Notes: generated from the letters alone by a model not told the origin. A DNA stretch of 64,000 bases from an uncultured Bacteroidales bacterium (GCA_902779845.1 CACZCZ010000018.1:14747-78746), one strand, 5' to 3'; shown: positions 21,529 to 32,141, counted from the stretch's first letter. Program-made: numbers and translations.

Positions 21529-23520
21529 ATGTCCATCGACACCGACCTACGCATCCTCGAGCTCCTCTCACAGAGCTTCCCCAATATCGCCGCCGCCTCC
21601 TCAGAGATCATCAACCTTGAGGCCATCTTGAACCTGCCCAAAGGCACCGAGCACTTCATGGCCGACATCCACGGCGAGTACGAGGCCTTCCTTCACATCC
21701 TCAAGAATGCCTCCGGCAACATCAAGCGCAAAGTGAAGGAGCTCTATGCCGACACCCTCTCGCCAGAGGAGATACGCGAACTCTGCACACTCATCTACTA
21801 CCCCGAGCAGAAGCTGGAGATCATCAAGAACCAGCTCGAGGCAGCCCAGTCCGACACCACCCTCGCCGCCTTCTACTCCATCACCCTCCAGCGCCTCATC
21901 CGCGTCTGCCAGTCGGTGTCATCCAAATATACGCGCTCCAAAGTCCGCAAGGCCCTGCCCGCCGAGTTCGCCTACATCATCGAGGAGCTCTTGCACGAAT
22001 CGCCCTCCGACGACGACAAGCAGGCCTACTTCGCCCGCATCATTGAGGCCATCGTGCAAACCGGCCGCGCCGACGCTTTCATCATCGCCTTGGCCACCGT
22101 CATCCAGCAGCTGGCCGTCGATCAGCTCCACATCCTCGGCGACATCTTCGACCGCGGCCCTGGCGCTCACATCATCATGGACCGCCTCTGCCAGCACCAC
22201 AGCTTCGACATCCAATGGGGCAACCACGACGCGCTGTGGATGGGTGCCGCTGCCGGCAACGACTGCTGCATCGCCAACGTCCTGCGTCTCTCGCTGCGCT
22301 ACGGCAACATGCAAACCCTCGAGGACGGCTACGGCATCAACCTCGTACCCCTGGCCACCTTCGCCATGGAGACCTACGCCAGCGATCCCTGCGACCTCTT
22401 CGGCCCGCGTCTCGACAAGGACGACACCACACACAACGAGAAGACACGCCGCCTCATCGCGCAGATGCATAAGGCCATCTCTATCATCCAGTTCAAGCTC
22501 GAAGCCCAGATGATCCTGCGCCGTCCCGAATGGCAGATGCAGGACCGCCTCGTGCTGCAGTATATCGACAAGGAACGCGGCCTCTTCGTGAAGGACGGCG
22601 TCACTTATGAGATGACCGACACCTTCCTGCCCACCCTCGACCCCGCACACCCTTATGACCTCACCCCCGAGGAGGCCGAGCTGGTGCGCCAGCTCCACCA
22701 CTCCTTCCGCGTCAGCGACAAACTGCAGAAGCACATCAAGTGCCTCTTCACCCACGGCTGCATGTACGCCATCTACAACGGCAACCTCCTCTTCCACGCC
22801 AGCGTACCCCTCAATGCCGACGGCACTCTCAAGGAAGTCGATCTCAACGGCCAGCGCTACAGCGGCCGCGAGCTGCTGCATCAGATTGGCATGACCATGC
22901 GCTCCGCCTTCAACGCCGACACGCCCCGTGCCGAGAAGCAGTTTGCCAAGGATTACTTCTGGTATCTGTGGTGCGGGCAGGACTCACCGCTCTTCGACAA
23001 AGACCGCATGGCCACCTTCGAACGTTACTTCCTGCGCGACAAGTCAACGCACGAAGAACGCAAGGGTTACTACTACCTCCTTCGCGACAACGCCGAAGTC
23101 TGCGACCGCATCCTCGATGCCTTCGGTGTCGAGGGCAAGCACCGCCATATCATCAACGGCCATGTCCCCGTACGCGTGGCAGGCGGCGAGAGTCCCATCA
23201 AGGCCGACGGTCGCCTCATGGTCATCGACGGCGGCCTCTCCAAAGCCTACCACAACACCACCGGCATCGCCGGCTACACCCTCGTCTTCCACAGCCGCGG
23301 CTTCGAGCTCATCCAGCACGAACCCTTCGAGAGTGCTGACGACGCCATCCGCCGAGGCACCGACATCGTCTCCAGCAAGCAGATTGTCGAGCTCAGCGGT
23401 CGCCGCCTGCGTGTCCGCGACACCGACAAAGGGCGCGAACTCCTCTCCCAGATTACGGAACTCCAGCACCTCCTCTACGCCTACCGCCACGGCATCCTCA
23501 AGGAGCGCACCCGCCAGTAA
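21529..23520 (+). CDS. fbp: Fructose-1,6-bisphosphatase class 3
   Basis: 663 aa, with the MADIHGEYEAF metallophosphoesterase motif and FBPase class 3 length. Confidence 0.95.
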   Translation: MSIDTDLRILELLSQSFPNIAAASSEIINLEAILNLPKGTEHFMADIHGEYEAFLHILKNASGNIKRKVKELYADTLSPEEIRELCTLIYYPEQKLEIIKNQLEAAQSDTTLAAFYSITLQRLIRVCQSVSSKYTRSKVRKALPAEFAYIIEELLHESPSDDDKQAYFARIIEAIVQTGRADAFIIALATVIQQLAVDQLHILGDIFDRGPGAHIIMDRLCQHHSFDIQWGNHDALWMGAAAGNDCCIANVLRLSLRYGNMQTLEDGYGINLVPLATFAMETYASDPCDLFGPRLDKDDTTHNEKTRRLIAQMHKAISIIQFKLEAQMILRRPEWQMQDRLVLQYIDKERGLFVKDGVTYEMTDTFLPTLDPAHPYDLTPEEAELVRQLHHSFRVSDKLQKHIKCLFTHGCMYAIYNGNLLFHASVPLNADGTLKEVDLNGQRYSGRELLHQIGMTMRSAFNADTPRAEKQFAKDYFWYLWCGQDSPLFDKDRMATFERYFLRDKSTHEERKGYYYLLRDNAEVCDRILDAFGVEGKHRHIINGHVPVRVAGGESPIKADGRLMVIDGGLSKAYHNTTGIAGYTLVFHSRGFELIQHEPFESADDAIRRGTDIVSSKQIVELSGRRLRVRDTDKGRELLSQITELQHLLYAYRHGILKERTRQ

Positions 23521-23608
23521 CTCAGGCAAGAGACAATCGTCTTCGCCACCGTTCCAACGATGCTTTCCATGAACTTATGAATGAAGGTTCATGCGATGCC
23601 CCCTTCTA

Positions 23609-24208
23609 TCAATCATAGATAATGTGCGGATTCCTTTCCGCCGGTGTCTTCCAGTCTATGTTGAAGCCATATCGCAAGATATCCTTCTTCAGCCCCCATA
23701 TACTATGGCAAATGCCTATCATCCAGTTCTCGGGTATGAAGACCATGTCCATGAAGGAATCTATGCTTTTTTCAAGGCTGGGTGAAAGGAATGGGCTCAA
23801 TCTGTCATCCTTTCCCTCCTCCCGATGTGCATTCCACAAGTCATAAGCCCGCATGATTTGCCTACCTAAGATCTCCTCTTTCTCAGGATAGTCAATCTCG
23901 ATTCTCGTCCGCGGGTCTATCAGCATGGCGAGCCTCTTCAAGAGCGAACCGATTCGTTCCACCTCTTTCTGGAAAGGCTGTACCTTCTTCTTTTCAGACC
24001 ACATTGACCTTGGGTCAGCCAGCGGCAACACGATGTCCGGCTCCGTTCCAATCCAATACACCGATGCCTCGCAGTTACCCACAACGCTACACATCAGCCC
24101 TAGCCGCCTCATCTCAGGATCAAAGAAGCCGCTCAGGTCCTTTATCCTAATGAACGCGCTGATGCCCAGCTCCTTCATCTTTGCTTCTGTTAGTACGATG
24201 TGTTCCAT
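23609..24208 (-). CDS. Hypothetical protein (199 aa), orphan
   Basis: Clean ORF in the island. Its promoter (24321-24355) has the same palindrome-plus-box architecture as the WYL and DUF1566-like genes. No motif recognised. Confidence 0.6.
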   Translation of the reverse strand: MEHIVLTEAKMKELGISAFIRIKDLSGFFDPEMRRLGLMCSVVGNCEASVYWIGTEPDIVLPLADPRSMWSEKKKVQPFQKEVERIGSLLKRLAMLIDPRTRIEIDYPEKEEILGRQIMRAYDLWNAHREEGKDDRLSPFLSPSLEKSIDSFMDMVFIPENWMIGICHSIWGLKKDILRYGFNIDWKTPAERNPHIIYD

Positions 24209-24320
24209 ATACTTGCAATGTGCTGATAATGCTCCTCTTGCATGAGCTAATCATAATTGTTTGTCAGACAAATATACCTTTACATCAGTATAACGAAATA
24301 GTATATATCGTTTTTCAATG

Positions 24321-24355
24321 CAAAGGTATAATATAGTAGCGAACACTATGTTCGC
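24321..24355 (-). promoter_or_regulatory. Promoter with operator palindrome (GCGAACA-cta-TGTTCGC, 10-nt gap, TACCTTTG)
   Basis: The minus strand reads GCGAACATAGTGTTCGC-tactatatta-TACCTTTG. The architecture is identical at 28065-28099 and 29145-29179. Confidence 0.6.
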
Positions 24356-24375
24356 ATAACAAAAAAAGAATGTAG

Positions 24376-24921
24376 TTATAGCTGCAATGGTTCCGTGAGA
24401 TCACCTATAGGATGATAATTAAAACCCAAATAACGATTATACCACTCTTCTGGTTTCCAGCCATCTAAAGATACCCTCTCTCCCGTTTCATTATCCACGA
24501 TTATCGGAGTAAAAACTTTAATCGAATTGTATATTCTTACATTACCAGTTGCTGTTCTCTCCACTCTTCCAACGTCATAAAGCGAACATATGTTATATTT
24601 TGCATCATCTTTTGTATAGATGCGAAATAAAGGGCCATGTTTACTGGGCACATCAACAATTTCTCCATCTATAGGTTTTAGTAATTCAGAGAAAGGAAAC
24701 GGAGACTTTTCATCTTGTCCAAGTTCATGATTGTGAACGACCTCTATGAGATCTGTAAAACCACTACGATTCTTCTTCCCAAATAATGGTAACACAAGTA
24801 GTACTTGTTGCGGATTATTAACACTAGCCACACATACCTTTAGATATCTGTCTAACTGTTCTTCGAAGGATTTCTTTTTGAATGGTACAGTCTCCCAGTT
24901 TGTTAATAAATACTTAGCCAT
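24376..24921 (-). CDS. Hypothetical protein (181 aa), third gene of the retron operon
   Basis: The ATG lies 7 nt after the stop of the 275-aa gene, with the same strand and AT-rich composition. No motif recognised. Confidence 0.7.
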   Translation of the reverse strand: MAKYLLTNWETVPFKKKSFEEQLDRYLKVCVASVNNPQQVLLVLPLFGKKNRSGFTDLIEVVHNHELGQDEKSPFPFSELLKPIDGEIVDVPSKHGPLFRIYTKDDAKYNICSLYDVGRVERTATGNVRIYNSIKVFTPIIVDNETGERVSLDGWKPEEWYNRYLGFNYHPIGDLTEPLQL

Positions 24922-24928
24922 ATTATTT

Positions 24929-25756
24929 TTAAATTTTAGACAATAATTCTGTATTTATTGTGTTCGCCATATCCTTAATTGCATCTACCACTTCTCCGAA
25001 TGGTTCTCTACGACGCCAAATTTGACGACGATATTTCCAATATGCAGATTTATCAAGGTTGTTAAATCGCAAAAGTAAGTCATTATTGTCTTTGATACCA
25101 TTCCAATATACTTCCCCTTCCTTGGTTAACGGAAGTTTCATAGCTAATAGTTTTGCCTTAAAGTCTTCTAAGTTCTTTGTTTCATCCAAACTTCTATGGC
25201 TTTGTTCGTTTCTTACTTCTCGCGCAAAATCCAAAACCTCAATTTGTCTTTTATTCATCTTACCTGAAAATGCAGACAATTTGGCTGCCAATGAAAGACC
25301 TTTTATAGAATCTATTTTCTCTATATTTGTCCATTTTGCATTATCGTTAATATATCTGATGACGTCTTCAATAGATTCAAACCTGTTCATGTAGAAATAA
25401 TTAAGCAAATGCTCTACTTGAAGCATTGCATACCTACAAAACTCTGAAAAGTCAATTTTATGGGACCGAACTCCCATCCGATACCTTAGCATTTCTCGAT
25501 AATCAGAAACTAGTTGCTCTCTGACATAATCTTCTTTAATAAAAGAATAGTCAATATCTGGAGTTGCACTATCTAATTTATAGTCCAGCCCCAGATATTT
25601 CTCGATGTCAGCGATTTTACGATTACTTGAAGAGTCATAGGTCGGCACATCTAACAACTCTCGTAGTCCTTTTACAAAATCGTCATTGCCAGGTTCATCA
25701 ATGAGGCGCTTGATGAACTGCAGGAGCTTAATTAATTGTTCTTTATTTTGTGCCAT
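24929..25756 (-). CDS. HEPN-like protein (Rx4H motif RNEQSH), putative retron effector
   Basis: The ATG lies 1 nt after the RT stop. FAREVRNEQSHRS (R182-H187, nt 25196-25213) fits the R[NHD]xxxH HEPN RNase motif. The protein looks predominantly helical. Confidence 0.6.
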   Translation of the reverse strand: MAQNKEQLIKLLQFIKRLIDEPGNDDFVKGLRELLDVPTYDSSSNRKIADIEKYLGLDYKLDSATPDIDYSFIKEDYVREQLVSDYREMLRYRMGVRSHKIDFSEFCRYAMLQVEHLLNYFYMNRFESIEDVIRYINDNAKWTNIEKIDSIKGLSLAAKLSAFSGKMNKRQIEVLDFAREVRNEQSHRSLDETKNLEDFKAKLLAMKLPLTKEGEVYWNGIKDNNDLLLRFNNLDKSAYWKYRRQIWRRREPFGEVVDAIKDMANTINTELLSKI

Positions 25757-25757
25757 A

Positions 25758-27179
25758 TTATAAATAGCTCAAATCAAAATTTGTTTCACAAAGTTTAGCA
25801 AGTATTTCATCCAGCGTCATCGAGGAATGTTTTTTCTTCTTTACATCGACGTCTTTACCAAATGGTCTATGAACGAAATAGAATCTCTCTTTCTGTTGAT
25901 TCTCGCAAAGAGATATTACCAGGTTTGTAAACTCCAATTTTTCAGAATTCTTGCTGATTGTTGCAACTTGTTTCTCACCATCTATCAAGAAGGAAGCGTA
26001 CTTTTTTCCGTTCTTCGATAGTTTCATTTCTACTTTTGTTCCAATTCTTTTCTCAAAATCGGTAATTCTCTGAGTGTCCAAGTACTTGATGGCTGTCTCG
26101 GAATTGCCATATAAAGGAACATCCATAAGTACATTGTATAGCTTCCTCAACTTTACATATGTGGAGTCATCCTCACCCTTGACCATTTTAAGATAATCCA
26201 ACTTTCCTGCTATCACGTTTTCCAAATGCGGAGCCCCCTTTTTAATGTGTCCTTTTTCCAGTTGGTAATGAACAATGAAACGCTGATAGGCTGTTGTCAA
26301 ACCATACTTTTGCCATATATAGAGTATATTTCTTATGTCTTCCACATATTTTCGCGTTACATTTACTTTGTCGCTAACAATCAGTCCCGTGACCTCTTGC
26401 CTGCTCCCTTTTTTCTGTAAACGTGTTTTTACTTCATTGACCTGGAAACCTTGCTCTTGAATGATTTTGAACAGGGTCTTCATGAAACGCGAGTCCTTCT
26501 GATAGACATTGTGCATACTGCTAAATGTAATATCATCTGCATAACGAGAATATATTAATCCATAATGTGAAGCCAATTTTGCAAGTTTATAGTCAAGCTT
26601 ATCGCATATTGCATTTGTGAGTAACGGCGAGGTTGGTGCTCCTTGTGGAAGAATATATTTCTCCGAATCTTCATTCACGAGTTTCATGCAGCACAATCCA
26701 GCAATTACACTGGCGAGTTCTGGATTGAAGTTGAAAGGAGGTACTTTCAGTCGTCCCCACACTCTCGCTTGAGGAATGCTTGGGAAGAAATCTTTAAGAT
26801 CCATGTTAAACACATAGTTCTGTGCAATATGCATTTGTGCATTATCAACGACGGACCGGTTCTGAGCAAAACCCATTGCCCACCGAGATGGTTCATAGAT
26901 GGCCTGAAATATGATGTTCAGATATGTCTGAATAGATTTCAAACCATTTACGGGAGCTGATATATGCCTTGCCCCACCGGACTTTTTTGCAATGAAGAAA
27001 TCGTGATATCGTTTGGAATTGGGAATAGAGAAGGGATTACAATAAAAGTTTATCTGCTTCATAGTAAACGGAAAGCCTCTATCGCCCAACTCGTCAGCCT
27101 TAATATCGTTTAGTAAGGCCAACAAATCAGTTTTATCTTTCATGTGCTCAACACGGAGCTTTATCTTTTCTCTATCCAT
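25758..27179 (-). CDS. Retron-type reverse transcriptase with a ~125-aa C-terminal extension
   Basis: FFIAKKSGGARHISAP; NAQMH (26829-26843); MDLKDFFPSI; LPQGAPTSPLLTNAICDKLD; YADD (26532-26543); RQEVTGLIV (VTG at 26385-26393). Collinear with the Ec86 RT as I remember it. Confidence 0.9.
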   Translation of the reverse strand: MDREKIKLRVEHMKDKTDLLALLNDIKADELGDRGFPFTMKQINFYCNPFSIPNSKRYHDFFIAKKSGGARHISAPVNGLKSIQTYLNIIFQAIYEPSRWAMGFAQNRSVVDNAQMHIAQNYVFNMDLKDFFPSIPQARVWGRLKVPPFNFNPELASVIAGLCCMKLVNEDSEKYILPQGAPTSPLLTNAICDKLDYKLAKLASHYGLIYSRYADDITFSSMHNVYQKDSRFMKTLFKIIQEQGFQVNEVKTRLQKKGSRQEVTGLIVSDKVNVTRKYVEDIRNILYIWQKYGLTTAYQRFIVHYQLEKGHIKKGAPHLENVIAGKLDYLKMVKGEDDSTYVKLRKLYNVLMDVPLYGNSETAIKYLDTQRITDFEKRIGTKVEMKLSKNGKKYASFLIDGEKQVATISKNSEKLEFTNLVISLCENQQKERFYFVHRPFGKDVDVKKKKHSSMTLDEILAKLCETNFDLSYL

Positions 27180-27198
27180 ATAAAAATGAGAGTCTTCA

Positions 27199-27384
27199 AC
27201 AGAACTGCTTTTCTTTGTATATCATAGCACATAACATACTGTTTGTATTTAAATTTGTAAGCCTCGAAGGAAAGCAGAAGTATGCTTTGCACGTCAAGCA
27301 CATATAACAATCTAACATTGTTACCTCAAGCATATGCAAGAGGAATCTACTGAATACGGTAGACAATTTCAAAATCAGTTCTGT
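27199..27384 (-). ncRNA. Candidate retron msr-msd non-coding RNA
   Basis: 14-nt inverted repeat: ACAGAACTGaTTTT (rc of 27371-27384) pairs with AAAAgCAGTTCTGT (rc of 27199-27212), 13 of 14 positions. The 3' arm ends 19 nt before the RT ATG. A G follows the 5' arm directly (27370). Internal hairpins are present, for example TAACAAT-guuag-ATTGTTA and AAAGCA-uacuuc-TGCTTT. Confidence 0.45.
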
Positions 27385-27434
27385 ATCAGACTCTCAAAGA
27401 TCGCTGTTTAACTTTGATTTGGAATGAGGATATA

Positions 27435-28040
27435 TCACCTCGTTTTAACAAGGCGTATAGGTATTGAGAAACCTGAAAAAACAAGAGTAATATCAATGGC
27501 CGTTATACGCAGTGCGCCCTCACCTACACGTCCCATATGTACCGCCTTTTTCTCATTTCCATCCTCCTTATTATTTATCCAGAAATATAAATGCCCAGCT
27601 CCATACATATTTTTATGCACTAGTCTACCAGCTTTTTTGAAACCTGTACTATGGAAATTAATACTATTGCCATTGGGACCTATGAATGTAACACTATACA
27701 AGTCTCCGTATGTGTTTTTTTCCACATGCCTCTCACAAGTCTCAAATAATTCTTTCCACTGTTCTTCTGTTGGAAGATTATAATTTTCTGCTGTCTCATA
27801 TGGCAAGAAGATAACTTTTTTATCTTCCATTTCATAATCAGCCGACCACAACGTTCCACTTGGCAAACCTAGGTCAACATATTCAGTCTTGTTGTCACGA
27901 AGATCGATTGGAATCTCTTCCTCTCGGTCTTTGTAACCATCACGATACCCTTCTTCATACGCTTTTGCGAGCGCATTTGCTATCACTTCGTTTGATTTCT
28001 CTGCTGCATATTGAGCAGCCTTCTCTGTCAGCTCTATCAT
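27435..28040 (-). CDS. DUF1566 / FISUMP-like domain protein, no signal peptide
   Basis: YVDLGLPSGTLWS, LPTEEQWKELF and GPNGNSINF...G..YFW segments match the Bacteroides DUF1566-type family as I recall it. The N-terminus is a helical region rich in A, E and K. Confidence 0.6.
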   Translation of the reverse strand: MIELTEKAAQYAAEKSNEVIANALAKAYEEGYRDGYKDREEEIPIDLRDNKTEYVDLGLPSGTLWSADYEMEDKKVIFLPYETAENYNLPTEEQWKELFETCERHVEKNTYGDLYSVTFIGPNGNSINFHSTGFKKAGRLVHKNMYGAGHLYFWINNKEDGNEKKAVHMGRVGEGALRITAIDITLVFSGFSIPIRLVKTR

Positions 28041-28064
28041 AGTTGCTATTATTTTTTAACACTG

Positions 28065-28099
28065 CAAAGATATATCCCGTTAGCGAACTCTATGTTCGT
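28065..28099 (-). promoter_or_regulatory. Promoter with operator palindrome (ACGAAC-N5-GTTCGC, 10-nt gap, TATCTTTG)
   Basis: The minus strand reads ACGAACATAGAGTTCGC-taacgggata-TATCTTTG, 25 nt upstream of the ATG at 28040. It overlaps the 3' end of the WYL gene. Confidence 0.6.
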
Positions 28100-29127
28100 A
28101 AACTACCATATTTTTCATTCATAGCAGAAATATGCTTTTCTATTTCGTTCTTGACATCGCCGTCGGACTGTAAGACGATGAGGTCTGCACCGAAAGAGGT
28201 TAGTTCACGGATGAGTTCAAAGTTGTTGATACAGTCCAGCGTGAAGAAGAGGCCGCCTTGGAGTTGGGGATATTCAGCACGCAGTTGCAGATCTTTCTCT
28301 CCTTTGAGGGGAGTGTAGCTGCCATGAATCGGCTTTGTATCGACATAACCTTTCGATGCATCACTCACCCAGCATAGGATATGTTCAACTGGACGATCCT
28401 CGTAGAGTGTAACACCTACGATGTCTTCAAAGCGGTCTGCAAGGTCTTCCGGACATTTCTCATAGTGCTTCTCTGGAAATGGATCCACTGCATTGATTCT
28501 GTCGAGAGCGAAGTGAAGGATCTTCTTGTCGCTGTCAGCAGCACCGAGCAGATACCAACGGTCGTTGTACTGCTTTAACAGGTAGGGATGGAAGTCTATG
28601 CTACGAATAGTCTCATCTGAGAAGGTATGGTAGGACAGCCTGATGACCACCTTATTAGATATATAGTCGAAGAGTGTTCCCAGGAGGTTGGAGTTCTTCA
28701 GGTAGGGATTGTTACTGAAACTTATAATCTGACGGTGGCTCCGCACTTCTGCATCTGCCTTCAGACGGTCCAACCAAGCAAAATGATCCAGACCGTTGAA
28801 CTGACCAATAGTGTTCAGAACTTCATGCAAGAGCAATCTCTCTTCACGACGCATCTCCTGCTTAAAAATAGAGAATGAGTGCTTGTCATACGCAATGCAG
28901 TTCTTGCCATTCTTCACGAATCGAGCAATGGGTGCATTGAAGGGCGCATCTTCAAGCGCATTAATATCTTTCTCTATGCAGCGTTGTCCAACCTCAAGGA
29001 ATCCATCAAACCGCAATCTCTCATTCACGCCATCTGTCAAGTCGTGAATGTCATAATAGTGATAGCGGTCGGACAGCAGTCTATCCAGATGCTTATATCG
29101 AATGAGAGCGTTCTTGTTCGTTGGCAT
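28090..29127 (-). CDS. WYL-domain transcriptional regulator (HTH-WYL-WCX type)
   Basis: N-terminal HTH (ALIRYKHLDRLL...RCIEKDINAL) and WYL motif NDRWYLLG. ATG at 29127 is preferred because the TACCTTTG box at 29145-29152 lies inside the longer ORF. Confidence 0.8.
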   Translation of the reverse strand: MPTNKNALIRYKHLDRLLSDRYHYYDIHDLTDGVNERLRFDGFLEVGQRCIEKDINALEDAPFNAPIARFVKNGKNCIAYDKHSFSIFKQEMRREERLLLHEVLNTIGQFNGLDHFAWLDRLKADAEVRSHRQIISFSNNPYLKNSNLLGTLFDYISNKVVIRLSYHTFSDETIRSIDFHPYLLKQYNDRWYLLGAADSDKKILHFALDRINAVDPFPEKHYEKCPEDLADRFEDIVGVTLYEDRPVEHILCWVSDASKGYVDTKPIHGSYTPLKGEKDLQLRAEYPQLQGGLFFTLDCINNFELIRELTSFGADLIVLQSDGDVKNEIEKHISAMNEKYGSLRT

Positions 29128-29144
29128 AATTTCTGTTTTTGCTG

Positions 29145-29179
29145 CAAAGGTAATTATTGGTTGCGAACGCAATGTTCGC
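29145..29179 (-). promoter_or_regulatory. Promoter with operator palindrome (GCGAAC-N5-GTTCGC, 10-nt gap, TACCTTTG), likely autoregulatory
   Basis: The minus strand reads GCGAACATTGCGTTCGC-aaccaataat-TACCTTTG, 18 nt upstream of the WYL ATG. Confidence 0.6.
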
Positions 29180-29335
29180 ACACCTCAAAAATCCTTTAGA
29201 CAAGTTTTCTGGCCACAAAGATACAACTTATTTTGATTCACTGAGCAAAAAACCTCAAAAAAAAATTTTTCATAAGGCTTGTGAAGCAGAAAAGGAGCGA
29301 TGCCGCTCCTTTTCGTTTCGACTCTATGATGATTA

Positions 29336-29944
29336 TTATTTCTTTGTTCTATCAACAATTACCCAATGGCCACCAAAATCTGCGCCAGCACGACGAATCA
29401 GACTGTCGCGTTTAAGGGTCTCGATGCACCGCTGTATATAACTTGAAGCCTTTCCTGTTTCCTTTACCAACTCAGCTCTGGTTATTTTCGGATTCTTCTT
29501 TATGAGTTCATAAACTATATCTATGGTTGTCTGACCACCTGTCTGACCACCTGTCTGACCACCTGTCTGACCACCTATTTGACCACCTATTTGAGTACTA
29601 TTCACATTATTCCTCTTGAACGTTACTTTCACTCCGCCATAGGCCGACTCAATCTTGGGCATAGGCAATCCAGCACCCTCAAAGCCCTCACGAATTTTCT
29701 TATAGCCACGTCCCCAGGCATCAATGAATCCGGCTTTGAAAAAGGCATTGGCAATATTTCTGTTGCGGGGACGCGAGGCATGTTGTTGAAGCAACGTCTC
29801 TGGAGTAAAGCCAACGGGCAATTCGCCTTCGTTCCATATCTCACAATAGTCATCCCATACACGCATCTGGATGTGAGCTCCCGTGTAGTCTTTATGGATG
29901 ATAGCATTATATAGTATTTCACGCAAAGCCTCCTCAGGTTCCAT
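29336..29944 (-). CDS. Truncated paralogue of the upstream gene (HATPase_c_4-like domain + repeat linker + wHTH); possible gene remnant
   Basis: EALREILYNAIIHKDY starts the HATPase_c_4-like region, and no AlbA_2 N-terminus is present. Similarity seems to continue 5' of the ATG up to an in-frame stop. Contains the GGQIGGQTGGQTGGQTGGQT linker. Confidence 0.55.
   Translation of the reverse strand: MEPEEALREILYNAIIHKDYTGAHIQMRVWDDYCEIWNEGELPVGFTPETLLQQHASRPRNRNIANAFFKAGFIDAWGRGYKKIREGFEGAGLPMPKIESAYGGVKVTFKRNNVNSTQIGGQIGGQTGGQTGGQTGGQTTIDIVYELIKKNPKITRAELVKETGKASSYIQRCIETLKRDSLIRRAGADFGGHWVIVDRTKK
29529..29594. repeat. 12-nt in-frame tandem repeat (GTCTGACCACCT x4 plus 2 variants)
   Basis: Read directly. 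Encodes (GGQT/GGQI)n in the linker of the 202-aa ORF. Confidence 0.9.
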
Positions 29945-29980: not shown

Positions 29981-31600
29981 TCATGACTCTTTCTTTTTCT
30001 TCAAAACCATCCATTCGCCACCGAATGTGCCACCTATTCGCTCAATAACAAGGTTTTCTTTTAGTTCCTTCAGGTCACGCTTGATGGTCTTTTTATCAAC
30101 ATCGAGTTTTTCTGCCATTGTCTCTACGCTGACATGGGAATCAATAGAAATCATGCCAACGATGGCTTGTTGACGCCTTTTACGTTTACTGATAACGAGT
30201 TCTCTTTCAAACGGCTTTAACGAGAGTTCCTCGTCTGTCAGCTCATGGATGGAAGTTGGGGACATTTTGTCCTTGTTGGGGACATTATCGGGTTCTGTTG
30301 GGGACATTTGTCCTTCGTTGGGGACATTTTTACCTTCTGTTGGGGACATTTTCCCTGTCTCTGTGACATTTCCATAGACATTTTCGTCCTGATAGGTGAT
30401 AGAGAAGAGGAACTGGGAGCCACTGTTGATCTCGATTTTATAGTTTGGATAGTAGAGCGGTGCATAGCGTAGGATGTTGCGGGTACCGGAGCCCAAATCC
30501 TCTGCCCAGTTCAGTTCGTGGAACACACGCACTAATAGTGGATTCTTGGTGTAGTTGCTGAGTTGTTGGATGGTCAACTCTCCCTCGGGGATCTCAGGCA
30601 ACAAGCGCGTAGGATTCTTCGTCACAACACGGTCTTTGAACACGTGGAAGAAGCAGGCATAACCGCTACTGAAATCAGTATGAACACACATATTGCCAAC
30701 AATCTCTCGGAATAAGTCCCAACGCAGGTTCTGTCGCTGCATGGTGTTGGCTGGCAGATAGAACTTATCAGGCAGATAACGCTCTACAAAAGCTCCCAAT
30801 TGTTCATAGACCTGAATCAGGTTCTGACGAATGGTGCGACGGTCATCATAGCGGCTGGGGAACAGACTCATATCGTTGTATTGGGCGTATGTGCACATGT
30901 GGAATACGGCCTCGAAGCGGTAACGAGGCATAAACTCTGTGATGGCATCTTCTGTGCCAAAAAGTATCAGTGCCGCATATTTCAGTTGTAGCTTGCTTCC
31001 TTCCTGCTTGGCCAGATGTGCGCTGAGCAACATCTCTTCATTCGTCATCTGCAACCAGGCATGTGAGGGTTGTATTGTTGCCAAGATGTTGCGGCAATAC
31101 TGGAAAGTCTTAACATCCAGCTGTTCCATCGTCAGACCTTCCACGATTCGTTCCTCAAACAGATGTGGATTCTTTCTTTCGAAGATTGACAACAATAGTT
31201 CGGGCTGATCGGTCACATCGATGTCAGCATCATCGTTCCTGTCCCAATAGCGGCCTTTGAAGCGATAGACATACTGACCGCAGGGGATATCGAGTTGCAT
31301 TACAGTCTTGTCATCCATCTCCATGATACGAGGCGTGAAATAAGGGCAAGGAAGAAACAGTTCAGGATTGTTGATGCAGTTGATGATGTCAGCTTTCAAC
31401 TTCTCTGCCTTATCGGGATTCACACCAATAACAGTTCCGTCATTCTGCACTCCTACTAGGATCTGCCCTCCGGTATGGTTCAAGAAAGAACACACCGACT
31501 CATAGAGGGATTCCGAAATTTCCTCCGTACAGGTCTTGTATTCTATCTGAGTTCCTTCGCCCTCAAGTGTCAATGCTATAAATTTATCTATTACTTTCAT
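29981..31600 (-). CDS. AlbA_2 (Schlafen-like) + HATPase_c_4 + wHTH putative DNA-binding protein
   Basis: EGEGTQIEYKT...LNHTGGQILVGV AlbA_2-type N-terminus and a C-terminal KTIKRDLKELKENLVIERIG wHTH. Proteins of this family are often mis-annotated as RecG-like. Confidence 0.75.
   Translation of the reverse strand: MKVIDKFIALTLEGEGTQIEYKTCTEEISESLYESVCSFLNHTGGQILVGVQNDGTVIGVNPDKAEKLKADIINCINNPELFLPCPYFTPRIMEMDDKTVMQLDIPCGQYVYRFKGRYWDRNDDADIDVTDQPELLLSIFERKNPHLFEERIVEGLTMEQLDVKTFQYCRNILATIQPSHAWLQMTNEEMLLSAHLAKQEGSKLQLKYAALILFGTEDAITEFMPRYRFEAVFHMCTYAQYNDMSLFPSRYDDRRTIRQNLIQVYEQLGAFVERYLPDKFYLPANTMQRQNLRWDLFREIVGNMCVHTDFSSGYACFFHVFKDRVVTKNPTRLLPEIPEGELTIQQLSNYTKNPLLVRVFHELNWAEDLGSGTRNILRYAPLYYPNYKIEINSGSQFLFSITYQDENVYGNVTETGKMSPTEGKNVPNEGQMSPTEPDNVPNKDKMSPTSIHELTDEELSLKPFERELVISKRKRRQQAIVGMISIDSHVSVETMAEKLDVDKKTIKRDLKELKENLVIERIGGTFGGEWMVLKKKKES
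30255..30372. repeat. In-frame tandem repeat, GTTGGGGACATT core recurring every 20 or 22 nt (42-nt double unit)
   Basis: Cores at 30255, 30275, 30297, 30317 and 30339, plus a degenerate copy at 30363. Encodes KMSPTEGKNVPNEG / QMSPTEPDNVPNKD / KMSPTS. Confidence 0.9.
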
Positions 31601-31694
31601 AATGCTCTAATTGTTGTCTAATGATTTCTTTGATCTGCTCTCGTAAGAACTGAGGCTTCATGACTTCCAGGTTCTCGCCCAAGTGAAGGGGGAG

Positions 31695-32141
31695 TTAGTG
31701 TAGATGCCGCGCTATCTCCTTGCCCTTCTCCGTGGCCAGGTATTTCGGATTCGGCTTGATGCCCACGCGCCCCAGGTCCAGACGGTCGGCATCGAAGCAG
31801 GCATCGATGGTGGCATTGCCGGTCATGTGGGCCGTGGTGTGCAGGCGACAGGCGGTCTTCAGCAGCTCTATCTCCTCGTCTGACACCTCCGCCAGCAGGG
31901 TTGTGCGGATGGTGTCTATGAACTTGGCCGCGCGCGGTCCGTGTTCCAGGTCGCGGCCGTCATTCCTTCGGCAGCTGTCATGGAGATAGGCGAAGAGACC
32001 CACGACCAGCGCGTTCACCTGGGGTGTCAGCAACTTCTGCCCATTCGCATACACCCGGTCCCAATGCCTTATGCCATGCGTGGACCCCAACTCCCATCGG
32101 GCATCCACATAGCTCCTTACGTCAGCAATAATCTTATTCAT
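31695..32141 (-). CDS. HD-domain protein
   Basis: HGIRHWDRV...AYLHDSCRR gives an H...HD pattern. GC-rich, so it is the first core gene to the right of the island. Confidence 0.65.
   Translation of the reverse strand: MNKIIADVRSYVDARWELGSTHGIRHWDRVYANGQKLLTPQVNALVVGLFAYLHDSCRRNDGRDLEHGPRAAKFIDTIRTTLLAEVSDEEIELLKTACRLHTTAHMTGNATIDACFDADRLDLGRVGIKPNPKYLATEKGKEIARHLH

What the first reader, a model, noticed from the sequence alone, without database searches (positions are those of the whole stretch)
24321..29179. Three island promoters share an identical operator architecture: GCGAAC-N5-GTTCGC exactly 10 bp upstream of the -7 box
Seen in sequence (minus strand):
- GCGAACATTGCGTTCGC-aaccaataat-TACCTTTG (29179-29145, WYL gene).
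- ACGAACATAGAGTTCGC-taacgggata-TATCTTTG (28099-28065, DUF1566-like gene).
- GCGAACATAGTGTTCGC-tactatatta-TACCTTTG (24355-24321, 199-aa gene).
- Palindrome, spacing and box are superimposable, and I saw no other full copy in the window.

Established knowledge: TAnnTTTG is the Bacteroides -7 element, with a -33 element about 20 bp upstream. WYL-domain regulators such as CapW and BrxR repress defence operons and are released by a damage or infection signal.

Inference:
- The palindrome overlaps the -33 position and is the operator of the island's WYL regulator.
- This would define a small regulon that brackets the retron.
- Read-through from the 28065 promoter would put the retron ncRNA and RT operon, which starts about 50 nt after the DUF1566-like stop, under the same control.
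Basis: partly seen in the sequence, partly recalled or inferred. Interest (0 to 1): 0.75.

Follow-up and report, generated by a model that had tools for sequence, protein, structure and literature searches.

The report
WYL-factor binding sites in island promoters
Three promoters in a small, foreign, low-GC gene island of a rumen Bacteroidales bacterium carry the same palindrome at the same distance from the promoter core; the same module recurs next to related WYL regulator genes in many other genomes, so it is very probably that regulator's binding site and puts a retron and neighbouring defence-like genes under one switch.

Summary
CGAAC-N5-GTTCG-N11-TAnnTTTG occurs three times with no mismatch, all on the minus strand inside the low-GC island. 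About 0.3 matches are expected even when three mismatches are allowed.

The module is conserved. Among 47 genomes carrying WYL homologues, it sits at -50 to -62 of the WYL start, again over the WYL stop codon, and again further downstream. In a blind pattern scan of metagenomes, 38 of 65 loci with a canonical site carried a WYL homologue.

Flanks and the 10-nt spacer are not conserved, but the spacing is (44 of 46). More distant WYL clades use variant half-sites (CGAAT/ATTCG, CGAAA/TTTCG) or a spacing one base shorter.

Downstream genes vary: the WYL gene itself, FISUMP-like, WG-repeat and ATPase genes, helicases, a probable Cas12a, and at least 20 retron ncRNAs.

The window's retron has lost its own module.

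Assignment to the WYL protein is well supported (about 0.85). The direction of control is not. Fixed spacing, a site over the -33 position and a PafBC/DriD-like fold point to activation. Defence-island precedent and autoregulation point to repression.

This is a new member of a known kind.

The parts
29163..29179 (-). Palindrome 1 (GCGAACATTGCGTTCGC), in the promoter of the WYL gene
   Evidence: Homologous sites lie at -50 to -62 of the WYL start in relatives.
29145..29152 (-). -7 box TACCTTTG of the WYL promoter, 10 nt after the 17-mer; the ATG follows 17 nt later
29216..29223 (-). Second, upstream -7 box (TATCTTTG), 36-37 nt before palindrome 1; possibly a palindrome-independent promoter for the WYL gene
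   Evidence: Such upstream boxes occur at 13/36 WYL-own modules against 16/157 cargo modules, p=3.5e-4.
28090..29127 (-). WYL-domain transcription factor, 345 aa (wHTH, helical linker, WYL, C-terminal domain)
   Evidence: Pfam WYL E 3e-12. PADLOC WYL. 3691 homologues. Foldseek to PafBC and DriD about 1e-8.
28083..28099 (-). Palindrome 2 (ACGAACATAGAGTTCGC). It overlaps the last WYL codons: CGA-ACA-TAG reads R-T-stop.
   Evidence: The same position (+1026 to +1130 from the WYL start) holds a site in 12 of 47 genome loci.
28065..28072 (-). -7 box TATCTTTG of the promoter of the 201-aa gene
27435..28040 (-). 201-aa gene (sub-threshold FISUMP-like). Its family is the second most frequent gene found behind such modules.
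   Evidence: TIGR02145, E 4e-4, below cut-off. Cluster of 11.
27187..27396 (-). Retron ncRNA region bounded by the a1/a2 inverted repeat (27371-27396 and 27187-27212). It has no promoter module of its own.
   Evidence: I1: 26 nt, 85% complementary; gap of about 35 nt where L014, L016 and L018 carry the module
25758..27179 (-). Retron reverse transcriptase, 473 aa, type XI-like without protease
   Evidence: (RT-Protease_XI, 3.9e-103). The lineage is described in bioRxiv 10.64898/2026.05.14.725207.
24376..25756 (-). Two genes after the RT (275 aa and 181 aa), presumed retron partners, no family hit
   Evidence: Relatives of the 275-aa protein follow the RT in 7 genome loci, with the closest match in L014.
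24339..24355 (-). Palindrome 3 (GCGAACATAGTGTTCGC), 21 nt after the stop codon of the 181-aa gene
24321..24328 (-). -7 box TACCTTTG of the third promoter
23609..24208 (-). 199-aa gene of unknown function, 112 nt after the third box; last gene of the island
   Evidence: No relative in the 47 genome loci.

Best explanation
Each of the three sites is a composite promoter module. It has a 15-17 bp palindrome, R-CGAACA-N3-nGTTCG-Y, with half-site centres 10 bp apart. I infer that this is bound by a dimer of the island's own WYL-domain transcription factor through its N-terminal winged helix-turn-helix. The palindrome sits at a fixed distance (10 nt after the 17-mer) from a Bacteroidetes -7 box, so the bound protein occupies the place where sigma region 4 would contact a -33 element.

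The factor thereby gates three transcripts:
- its own gene;
- the 201-aa gene, plus the retron ncRNA, RT and the 275-aa and 181-aa genes by read-through;
- the 199-aa gene.

By analogy with every characterised HTH-WYL regulator, the WYL domain senses a nucleic-acid ligand, most likely single-stranded DNA made during phage infection or DNA damage. That signal turns the island on.

I lean slightly towards the DriD/PafBC mode: the ligand-bound factor binds the palindrome and helps RNA polymerase use a promoter that lacks a -33 element. Basal WYL expression would then come from the upstream box at 29223-29216.

The confidence given (0.45) is for this full statement, including the activator mode. 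The narrower claim that the palindrome is the cognate WYL factor's binding site I put at about 0.85.

What is shown: the sequence modules, their conservation, their linkage to WYL genes, the fixed spacing, and the missing retron promoter. What is inferred: binding by the WYL protein, the ligand, the direction of control, and read-through.
For: Linkage to the WYL gene:
- The module is at the WYL gene's own promoter in about 25 of 47 genome loci once variant half-sites are counted. It is over the WYL stop codon in 12, and further downstream on the same strand in many.
- A blind pattern scan of metagenomes gave 65 loci with canonical sites. 38 of them carried a WYL homologue, although loci average only 6.7 kb.
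- The other DNA-binding protein of the island, the 539-aa AlbA_2-HTH protein, has a relative in 4 of 47 and 1 of 80 loci.
- Of 19 pattern hits in viral contigs, none carries a WYL gene. All but one lack the full A(T/A)(A/T)G centre of the consensus, so they look like background.

Selection on the module:
- A logo of 174 sites shows conserved half-sites, centre and box, with near-random flanks and spacer.
- The spacing is 11 nt from the 15-mer core in 44 of 46 sites retrieved through the protein.

Clade-specific variants:
- CGAAT/ATTCG with spacing 10 in L041-L045.
- CGAAA/TTTCG in L038-L040.
- CGAAG in L029, L030, L035 and L049.

For the activator mode:
- A site at a fixed distance from the core element, over the -35 position, is what is reported for DriD promoters (PMC13004042) and for PafBC (PMC11804915).
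- The best fold matches are PafBC (7e-9) and DriD (1e-8), against CapW (3e-4) and BrxR (1.5e-3).
- The profile aligns residues 179-335 to PafBC 183-324. The stretch between HTH and WYL is therefore about 60 residues longer than in BrxR.
- Second upstream -7 boxes are enriched at WYL-own promoters.

For retron control:
- At least 20 modules in relatives run straight into a retron a1 arm.
- The window lacks that module.
- There is no minus-strand -7 box between 27864 and a1 and no terminator-like site.
Against: - No binding, transcription-start or expression data exist.
- The structure model is poor (mean pLDDT 64.5; the WYL domain is below 50). The fold ranking is therefore soft.
- An exact -33 TTTG is present at only about 15% of ordinary -7 boxes in these loci. 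Its absence here says little.
- The characterised defence-associated WYL regulators that I checked in the literature (BrxR, a second V. cholerae WYL protein, Sll7009) are repressors (PMC9122601, PMC13622015), and so is CapW from my own knowledge.
- The same module sits on the WYL gene's own promoter, which fits negative autoregulation.
- In L038-L041 and L049 a perfect -7 box abuts the palindrome. The site then lies at that promoter's start, which is a repressor geometry.
- 27 of 65 canonical loci show no WYL gene, although most of these have under 3 kb of upstream sequence.
Confidence: 0.45

Rival explanations
1. This is a classical operator for a BrxR/CapW-style repressor. The unliganded WYL dimer sits on the palindrome and blocks sigma region 4 and RNA polymerase at all three promoters. 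It also acts as a roadblock for the upstream promoter at 29223. It falls off when its WYL domain binds ssDNA, which derepresses the island.
For: - Defence-island precedent. BrxR binds 10-11 bp inverted repeats with a 5-bp spacer, and two such boxes exist in one island (PMC9122601).
- BrxR and a second WYL repressor in V. cholerae are released through ssDNA (PMC13622015).
- The module is on the WYL gene's own promoter in most close relatives, which is negative-autoregulation logic.
- The -7 boxes are near consensus, TAnCTTTGCA.
- In L038-L041 and L049 a perfect -7 box directly abuts the palindrome.
- Missing -33 elements are common in ordinary promoters here.
Against: - Steric repression does not need a fixed distance. 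Yet spacing is kept in 44 of 46 sites while the spacer sequence has drifted to near randomness, and it changes by one base in a clade-specific way.
- The protein is closer to the activators PafBC and DriD than to BrxR or CapW in fold search, profile search and length of the HTH-WYL linker.
Confidence: 0.4
2. The palindrome is bound by some other factor, and the WYL gene is only a frequent neighbour. Candidates are a host-wide regulator such as an SOS-type repressor (the site resembles the Gram-positive LexA box CGAAC-N4-GTTCG, recalled from my own knowledge), the AlbA_2-HTH protein encoded upstream, or an ECF sigma factor reading GAAC as a -35 element.
For: - CGAAC/GTTCG half-sites resemble the Firmicute LexA box (own knowledge, not tested).
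- 27 of 65 canonical loci show no WYL gene within the DNA available.
- AlbA_2/HATPase_c_4/HTH genes recur just upstream of some WYL genes.
Against: - The spacer is 5 nt, not 4.
- No site lies at any host gene in the 64-kb window.
- Sites follow the WYL gene across genera and change half-site and spacing with the WYL clade.
- The AlbA_2-HTH protein has a relative in only 4 of 47 and 1 of 80 loci.
- The downstream element is the primary-sigma -7 box, not an ECF -10.
- No sigma factor gene is in the island.
Confidence: 0.08
3. The shared 34-bp module is mainly a structural or recombination feature. It would be a portable junction at which cargo genes are swapped between islands, or a repeat spread by copying. 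Any regulatory role would be secondary.
For: - The modules sit exactly at cargo boundaries. One is fused to the WYL stop codon.
- Cargo behind them is highly variable.
- The repeat finder groups them as one family.
Against: - Only the palindrome, the spacing and the -7 box are conserved. The flanks and the spacer are not. That is the pattern of a protein-binding site plus promoter, not of a recently copied repeat.
- All modules point towards a gene or ncRNA start 16-30 nt away.
- No recombinase gene is in the island.
Confidence: 0.03

Closest known systems
BrxR of Escherichia fergusonii pEFER and of Acinetobacter (WYL repressor of BREX and defence islands; PMC9122601)
   Same: - HTH-WYL-C-terminal-domain regulator encoded at the head of a defence island.
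- Binds an inverted repeat with a 5-bp spacer.
- More than one box per island (R-BOX1 before brxR, R-BOX2 before brxA).
- Its family sits next to many different defence systems.
   Different: - BrxR arms are 10-11 bp long; here they are 5-6 bp.
- The BrxR box lies downstream of the -10 element. Here the site lies upstream of the -7 box, at a fixed distance, over the -33 position.
- There is no sequence hit to BrxR, and the fold match is weak (E 1.5e-3).
- Our protein is about 50 residues longer between HTH and WYL.
- Three or four full modules occur per island.
DriD of Caulobacter crescentus (WYL activator of an SOS-independent damage response; PMC13004042, PMC9186387)
   Same: - Pseudo-palindromic site overlapping the -35 position, at the same distance from the core element in every target promoter.
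- Target promoters lack a -35 element.
- Among the best fold matches (about 1e-8).
- Similar length (327 against 345 aa), with a helical domain between wHTH and WYL.
   Different: - The DriD site is ATACGAC-N7-GTCGTAT, so half-site centres are 14 bp apart rather than 10.
- Its targets are DNA-damage genes, not a mobile defence island.
- DriD is reported to activate the divergent operon rather than its own gene.
- Activation is not shown here.
PafBC and its composite promoters in mycobacteria (PMC11804915)
   Same: - A composite promoter made of a factor-specific motif next to the -10 element, in place of a -35 element.
- The factor is a WYL protein activated by ssDNA.
- PafBC is the best sequence-profile and fold hit for our protein and for this WYL family in the retron preprint.
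   Different: - PafBC is a heterodimer or fusion that uses only one HTH on DNA, at a -26 motif. Here there is a symmetric palindrome and a single gene.
- The organisms and sigma factors are unrelated.
Type XI-like 'TXI_C2like' retrons of Bacteroidota with neighbouring WYL genes (bioRxiv 10.64898/2026.05.14.725207)
   Same: - Same retron lineage: RT without protease, a1/a2-flanked ncRNA, Bacteroidota only.
- The same association with PafBC-like WYL proteins (47 of 126 loci).
   Different: - The preprint treats the WYL protein as an accessory module of the retron and does not look at promoters or binding sites (0 mentions).
- Here the link is a cis-regulatory module that is also placed before many non-retron genes.

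Membership tests
HTH-WYL-WCX transcription factors (superfamily of PafBC, DriD, BrxR, CapW) | WYL domain | tested here: met
   PF13280, E 3.1e-12, residues 148-215, above the cut-off. PADLOC WYL models at 3e-18 and 1e-14.
HTH-WYL-WCX transcription factors (superfamily of PafBC, DriD, BrxR, CapW) | N-terminal winged helix-turn-helix | tested here: inconclusive
   No Pfam HTH hit. The AF2 model gives three helices plus a beta hairpin at residues 5-80 with pLDDT about 85. Full-length Foldseek alignments reach DriD, PafBC, CapW and BrxR.
HTH-WYL-WCX transcription factors (superfamily of PafBC, DriD, BrxR, CapW) | C-terminal WCX dimerisation domain | tested here: inconclusive
   Some 70%-identical homologues carry PF25583 alongside the WYL domain; I take this to be the WCX domain, from memory. 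The profile aligns residues 179-335 to PafBC 183-324 at E 0.016. The model has pLDDT about 80 over residues 250-340. Dimerisation was not testable.
HTH-WYL-WCX transcription factors (superfamily of PafBC, DriD, BrxR, CapW) | Binding of ssDNA or another nucleic-acid ligand in the WYL domain | not testable with these tools
   Inferred only, from DriD, PafBC, CapW and BrxR structures with ssDNA (PDB titles; PMC13622015).
BrxR/CapW-type defence-island repressors | Inverted-repeat site at its own promoter and at the promoter of the adjacent defence genes | tested here: met
   BrxR precedent.
BrxR/CapW-type defence-island repressors | Close structural or sequence relationship to BrxR or CapW | tested here: not met
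   No sequence hit in the PDB. Foldseek E values of 1.5e-3 for BrxR and 3e-4 for CapW are 4-5 orders weaker than for PafBC and DriD. The model is of low confidence.
BrxR/CapW-type defence-island repressors | Represses transcription when unliganded | not testable with these tools
   Needs reporter assays or in vitro transcription.
DriD/PafBC-type activator-dependent promoters | Factor site at an invariant distance from the -10-like element in all targets | tested here: met
   44 of 46 sites at 11 nt and 2 at 10 nt in loci retrieved through the protein. Spacing is 10 nt throughout clade L041-L045. DriD description.
DriD/PafBC-type activator-dependent promoters | Site overlaps or replaces the -35 (here -33) element | tested here: met
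   A -33 TTTG at the usual 19-20 nt spacing would fall on positions 2-7 of the 15-mer core, where the sequence is AACAT (my reading). Weak as evidence, because only about 15% of ordinary boxes have an exact TTTG there.
DriD/PafBC-type activator-dependent promoters | Helical (three-helix-bundle) domain between wHTH and WYL | tested here: inconclusive
   About 65 residues with predicted helices 94-107 and 117-125 lie between the wHTH and the Pfam WYL start. The N-terminal length equals that of PafBC in the profile alignment. In BrxR the WYL domain starts at residue 120. Model confidence here is below 60.
DriD/PafBC-type activator-dependent promoters | Transcription requires the liganded factor | not testable with these tools
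   Needs experiments.
Bacteroidetes primary-sigma promoter (-7 TAnnTTTG, -33 TTTG) | -7 box followed closely by a gene or RNA start | tested here: met
   The three boxes are followed by an ATG at 17, 24 and 112 nt. TAnnTTTG is enriched in the window, 44 found against 17 expected.
Bacteroidetes primary-sigma promoter (-7 TAnnTTTG, -33 TTTG) | -33 TTTG 19-21 nt upstream of the box | tested here: not met
   That position is occupied by the left half-site.
Type XI-like (TXI_C2like) retron | Retron-clade RT closest to type XI but without the protease, an upstream a1/a2-flanked ncRNA, a Bacteroidota host, and a WYL neighbour | tested here: met
   PADLOC RT-Protease_XI at 3.9e-103, covering only the RT part. 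a1/a2 repeat of 26 nt, 85% complementary. Definition of the lineage. msDNA synthesis was not testable.
Firmicute LexA (Cheo) box CGAAC-N4-GTTCG | 4-nt spacer and location at SOS genes | tested here: not met
   The spacer is 5 nt at all sites. No site lies at a host gene in the window. The consensus of the Cheo box is recalled from my own knowledge.

The most novel reading that the evidence does not exclude
The WYL factor's ligand is the retron's own multicopy single-stranded DNA. The retron would then be a signal generator as well as a regulated cargo. msDNA bound in the WYL domain would set the expression state of the whole island. Loss or modification of msDNA by a phage would flip the regulon.

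This would explain why this WYL family and this retron lineage travel together so often: the RT is in 25 of 80 blind-scan loci, and at least 20 modules are fused to retron ncRNAs.

Nothing here tests it. The same WYL family also heads islands without a retron, which argues against msDNA being the general ligand.
Probability: 0.06. Interest if true: 0.85.

Novelty: new member of a known kind. Interest (0 to 1): 0.55.

Why it matters
**Defence regulation in Bacteroidales.** The motif gives a concrete, testable cis-element for how rumen and gut Bacteroidales switch their defence islands on. About 34 bp predict which genes belong to the regulon of a very common WYL regulator (3691 homologues at E <= 1e-5).

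**Retron biology.** It shows that the Bacteroidota-specific type XI-like retrons are transcriptionally gated. The module is often fused directly to the retron ncRNA. That bears on whether these retrons act as standing guards or as induced effectors.

**A reinterpretation.** The WYL gene is better seen as an island regulator than as a retron accessory protein.

**If the activator reading is right.** It would be the first DriD/PafBC-type WYL activator in a defence context, and an example of a factor replacing -33 recognition in Bacteroidetes.

**Practical uses.**
- The module could serve as an inducible promoter part for Bacteroides and Prevotella.
- It is a search handle for unannotated defence genes, such as the 201-aa, WG-repeat, aspartyl-protease-like and 950-aa beta-propeller families found behind it.

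Tried and rejected
- **Rfam scan** of 22-33 kb at E <= 1: no hit, so no known RNA family accounts for the sites or the retron ncRNA.
- **Own promoter for the retron.** The GATCTTTG at 27402-27395 looked like a degenerate -7 box. Alignment with L014, L016 and L018 shows it is part of the conserved 5' arm of the ncRNA (GCGGTCTTTGA in relatives). The real module is deleted in the window.
- **Terminators** that would block read-through: none on the minus strand between 28040 and 24376. The scan is simple and may miss Bacteroidetes terminators.
- **AlbA_2/HATPase_c_4/HTH protein (539 aa) as the binding factor:** rejected on co-occurrence, 4 of 47 and 1 of 80 loci.
- **LexA-type box and ECF-sigma -35 (GAAC):** rejected on spacer length, on the primary-sigma -7 box, and on the absence of sites at host genes.
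- **Generic repeat or MITE:** rejected because the flanks and the spacer are not conserved.
- **Absence of a -33 element as an argument for activation:** weakened, since only about 15% of ordinary boxes have an exact TTTG.
- **Sequence search of the PDB:** nothing significant with the single sequence. The profile gave only PafBC at E 0.016.
- **AlphaFold model from a shallow alignment of 33 sequences at 70% identity or more:** mean pLDDT 64.5, WYL domain unresolved. The fold ranking is used only as a soft argument.
- **Viral contigs:** 19 pattern hits, none with a WYL gene. All but one lack the full A(T/A)(A/T)G centre of the consensus. Used as a background control.
- **Covariation between own-promoter and cargo half-sites** within the distant clades: too few sites to test.

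Full report
**1. The observation**

The composite pattern CGAAC-N5-GTTCG-N11-TAnnTTTG matches 29178-29145, 28098-28065 and 24354-24321 with no mismatch. Allowing three mismatches adds only the reverse reading of site 1. Shuffled sequence gives 0.33 matches on average.

The bare palindrome with one mismatch occurs twice more, at 8599 and 18197. Both are inside GC-rich host sequence and have no -7 box. An independent repeat search groups the three modules as one 49-nt family (D2).

**2. Setting**

The sites lie in a stretch of 37-45% G+C, about 23.6-31.6 kb, inside sequence of about 57% G+C. All island genes are on the minus strand:
- a 539-aa AlbA_2/HATPase_c_4/HTH protein;
- a 202-aa fragment of the same type;
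- the 345-aa WYL protein;
- a 201-aa protein with a sub-threshold FISUMP match;
- a retron, made of an ncRNA with a 26-nt a1/a2 inverted repeat and a 473-aa RT whose best PADLOC model is RT-Protease_XI but which lacks the protease;
- proteins of 275 aa and 181 aa;
- after site 3, a 199-aa protein with no family hit.

Identical WYL proteins occur on 21 metagenome contigs, with the same gene order where the contigs are long enough to show it. Relatives come from MAGs named for rumen and other ruminant and herbivore gut samples, annotated as Prevotella, Prevotellaceae, Bacteroidaceae and Bacteroidales.

**3. Is the module conserved, and with what?**

I fetched 47 genome loci through the WYL protein alone and scanned them for the palindrome.
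- In homologues down to about 45% identity the module sits 50-62 nt before the WYL start.
- It sits again at +1026 to +1130, over the WYL stop codon, as the promoter of the next gene.
- It sits again several kb downstream, always on the WYL strand.
- In the window, site 2 reads CGA-ACA-TAG, which is Arg-Thr-stop of the WYL gene. The regulator gene and the next module are therefore physically fused.

A logo of 174 non-identical sites reads R-CGAACATAGnGTTCG-Y, ten near-random bases, then TAnCTTTGCAnCA. The flanks are unconserved apart from an A-rich tract 11-17 nt upstream. Positions not fixed by my search pattern carry information: A6 88%, T7 78%, A8 68%, G9 71%.

In the protein-retrieved loci, which are unbiased for spacing, 44 palindromes have the box 11 nt after the 15-mer core and 2 have it at 10 nt.

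**4. The converse test**

I scanned metagenome contigs with the DNA pattern alone.
- 65 of those 80 loci have the canonical centre. 38 of these carry a WYL homologue, although loci average 6.7 kb and many are cut close to the site.
- The sites fall at the WYL promoter (16), at the WYL 3' end (14), or further downstream on the same strand (15).
- Of the 15 non-canonical loci, several of them GC-rich, 3 carry a WYL gene.
- The retron RT of this lineage is in 25 of 80 loci. The AlbA_2-HTH protein is in 1.
- In viral contigs the pattern gives 19 hits. None carries a WYL gene. Only one carries the full A(T/A)(A/T)G centre. This shows what background looks like.

**5. Clade-specific variants**

More distant WYL genes (38-41% identity) carry the same design with changed details:
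- CGAAA-N5-TTTCG in L038-L040;
- CGAAT-N5-ATTCG with a spacing of 10 instead of 11 in L041-L045;
- CGAAG in L029, L030, L035 and L049.

A site that changes with the regulator's lineage, and that sits at that regulator's own promoter, is the usual comparative signature of a cognate binding site. Together with section 4, I put the assignment to the WYL protein at about 0.85.

**6. What the modules drive**

Genes behind modules cluster as follows:
- the WYL gene itself (39);
- the 201-aa family (11);
- an aspartyl-protease-like family (10);
- WG-repeat proteins (10);
- AAA_15/AAA_21/DUF3696 ATPases (6);
- a 950-aa beta-propeller protein (5);
- HAD hydrolases (4);
- UvrD-like and PIF1 helicases;
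- an LRR_5 protein and a second RT type;
- a 1450-aa protein that I take to be Cas12a from its N-terminal sequence (not tested).

At least 20 modules have no ORF behind them. They run, about 20 nt after the box, into the conserved a1 arm of a retron ncRNA (GCGGTCTTTGA...), for example at L016:7252 and L018:11463.

**7. The retron in the window**

The window has no such module before its retron.
- Aligned with L014 (RT 73% identical), L016 and L018, it has a gap of about 35 nt exactly where they carry the palindrome. The box position reads TATCCTCA.
- L014 keeps a decayed copy, CGATATACATATTCG-N11-TAACTTTG.
- There is no minus-strand TAnnTTTG between 27864 and a1 and no terminator-like site.

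It is supported indirectly.

**8. What kind of WYL protein**

The protein has no significant sequence match in the PDB. A family profile finds only PafBC in its RNA polymerase complex (E 0.016). That alignment covers residues 179-335 against chain residues 183-324, so the part before the WYL domain is as long as in PafBC. In BrxR the WYL domain starts at residue 120.

An AlphaFold model is weak: mean pLDDT 64.5, with the wHTH about 85, the C-terminal domain about 80 and the WYL domain below 50. With that caveat, Foldseek ranks PafBC (7e-9) and DriD (1e-8) well above CapW (3e-4) and BrxR (1.5e-3). The retron preprint reports HHsearch probabilities of 99.6-99.7% to PafBC for WYL clusters next to this retron lineage.

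**9. Direction of control**

Two published precedents fit different features.

*For repression.* BrxR binds inverted repeats with a 5-bp spacer, has two boxes in one island and represses. BrxR and a second Vibrio WYL repressor are released through ssDNA. Autoregulation and near-consensus -7 boxes fit this. So do five loci in which a perfect -7 box abuts the palindrome, which places the site at that promoter's start.

*For activation.* DriD sites overlap the -35 position and are reported at an identical distance from the -10 element in its identified target promoters, several of which lack a clear -35. From the published didA probe I infer that the site centre coincides with the -35 hexamer. 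Here the palindrome centre is about 19 bp before the box, within about 3 bp of where a -33 element would be centred. PafBC likewise reads a factor-specific -26 motif in place of a -35 element.

Steric repression gives no reason to hold the spacing in 44 of 46 sites while the spacer sequence drifts to randomness. Nor does it explain a shift by one base in a whole clade.

Second, palindrome-independent -7 boxes are enriched before the WYL gene: 13 of 36 against 16 of 157, p = 3.5e-4. An activator needing basal expression would want that.

The lack of a -33 TTTG is itself weak evidence. Only about 15% of 451 ordinary boxes have one at 19-20 nt.

I put activation at about 0.45 and repression at about 0.40. 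A dual role is possible, with repression of the upstream promoter and activation of the downstream one.

**10. Comparison with what is known**

WYL regulators at the head of mixed defence islands are established (PMC9122601, PMC13622015). The co-occurrence of PafBC-like WYL genes with Bacteroidota type XI-like retrons was reported in May 2026. That report has no analysis of promoters or binding sites.

In the library I could search, the following appear to be new:
- the cis-element itself;
- its fixed geometry;
- its modular use before many unrelated cargo genes and directly before retron ncRNAs;
- the consequence that the WYL gene is an island regulator rather than a retron accessory.

I file it as a new member of a known kind. 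It would be a new variant if activation is shown.

**11. Limits**

- Everything about binding, ligand, direction and transcript structure is inferred.
- The source genome outside the 64-kb window could not be scanned.
- The structure model is poor.
- The terminator scan is simplistic.

Noticed in passing
window 27150-27470 (minus), compared with L014:9640-9995, L018:11430-11810 and L016:7220-7560: The window's retron has lost the palindrome/-7 module that its relatives carry directly before the ncRNA. There is a gap of about 35 nt. L014 keeps a decayed copy, CGATATACATATTCG-N11-TAACTTTG. The outer part of the a1/a2 stem of L016 and L018 (AGCGGTCTTTGA pairing with TCAGAGACCGCT) also has no a2 partner in the window or in L014.
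   Followed up: yes
window 28083-28099: Palindrome 2 encodes the last two residues and the stop codon of the WYL gene (CGA-ACA-TAG, R-T-stop). The family consensus also ends in RT. The regulator gene and the promoter module of the next gene are therefore one physical unit.
   Followed up: partly
window 29336-29944 and 29981-31600 (minus); L024-L028 and L031 just upstream of their WYL genes: A full AlbA_2/HATPase_c_4/HTH gene and a 202-aa C-terminal fragment of the same type lie just upstream of the WYL gene. In the 48-54% identity WYL clade, the WYL gene has no module of its own. It follows the 3' end of an ORF with almost no gap, and that ORF end resembles the 202-aa fragment in most of these loci. 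This suggests an operon with that protein.
   Followed up: partly
window 29516-29606 and 30255-30380: There are in-frame tandem repeats inside the two AlbA_2-type genes. One is six copies of a 12-nt unit, giving the GGQT repeats in the 202-aa ORF. The other is three copies of a 42-nt unit in the 539-aa gene. They may be variable linkers.
   Followed up: no
L132:1826 (metagenome locus): A canonical module precedes a 1450-aa ORF that starts MEQFTNLYQLSKTLKFKLEPEGNT. I take this to be Cas12a from memory of its N-terminal motif. It was not run against any family library.
   Followed up: no
Loci L013, L016, L018, L069, L111 and L131 (WG_beta_rep); L022, L094, L095, L136 and L137 (aspartyl-protease-like); L077, L093, L104, L113 and L117 (950-aa beta-propeller): Several protein families that are not in PADLOC recur directly behind the module, alongside the 201-aa FISUMP-like family. 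They are candidates for unrecognised defence or sensing genes of Bacteroidales.
   Followed up: partly
window 24209-24320 (minus): The third promoter has a 112-nt leader before the 199-aa ORF. The leader holds a second -7-like box (TATATTTG, 24276-24269) and a short hairpin-forming stretch (AACGATATATACTATTTCGTT). The other two modules have leaders of 17 and 24 nt measured from box to ATG.
   Followed up: no
window 23520-23609 and 31600-31695: The island lies between a class 3 fructose-bisphosphatase gene and a gene with a weak, sub-threshold HD-domain hit followed by a PfkB kinase gene. G+C drops sharply at both edges. No integrase, tRNA gene or obvious flanking direct repeat is present, so how the island moves is unclear.
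   Followed up: no
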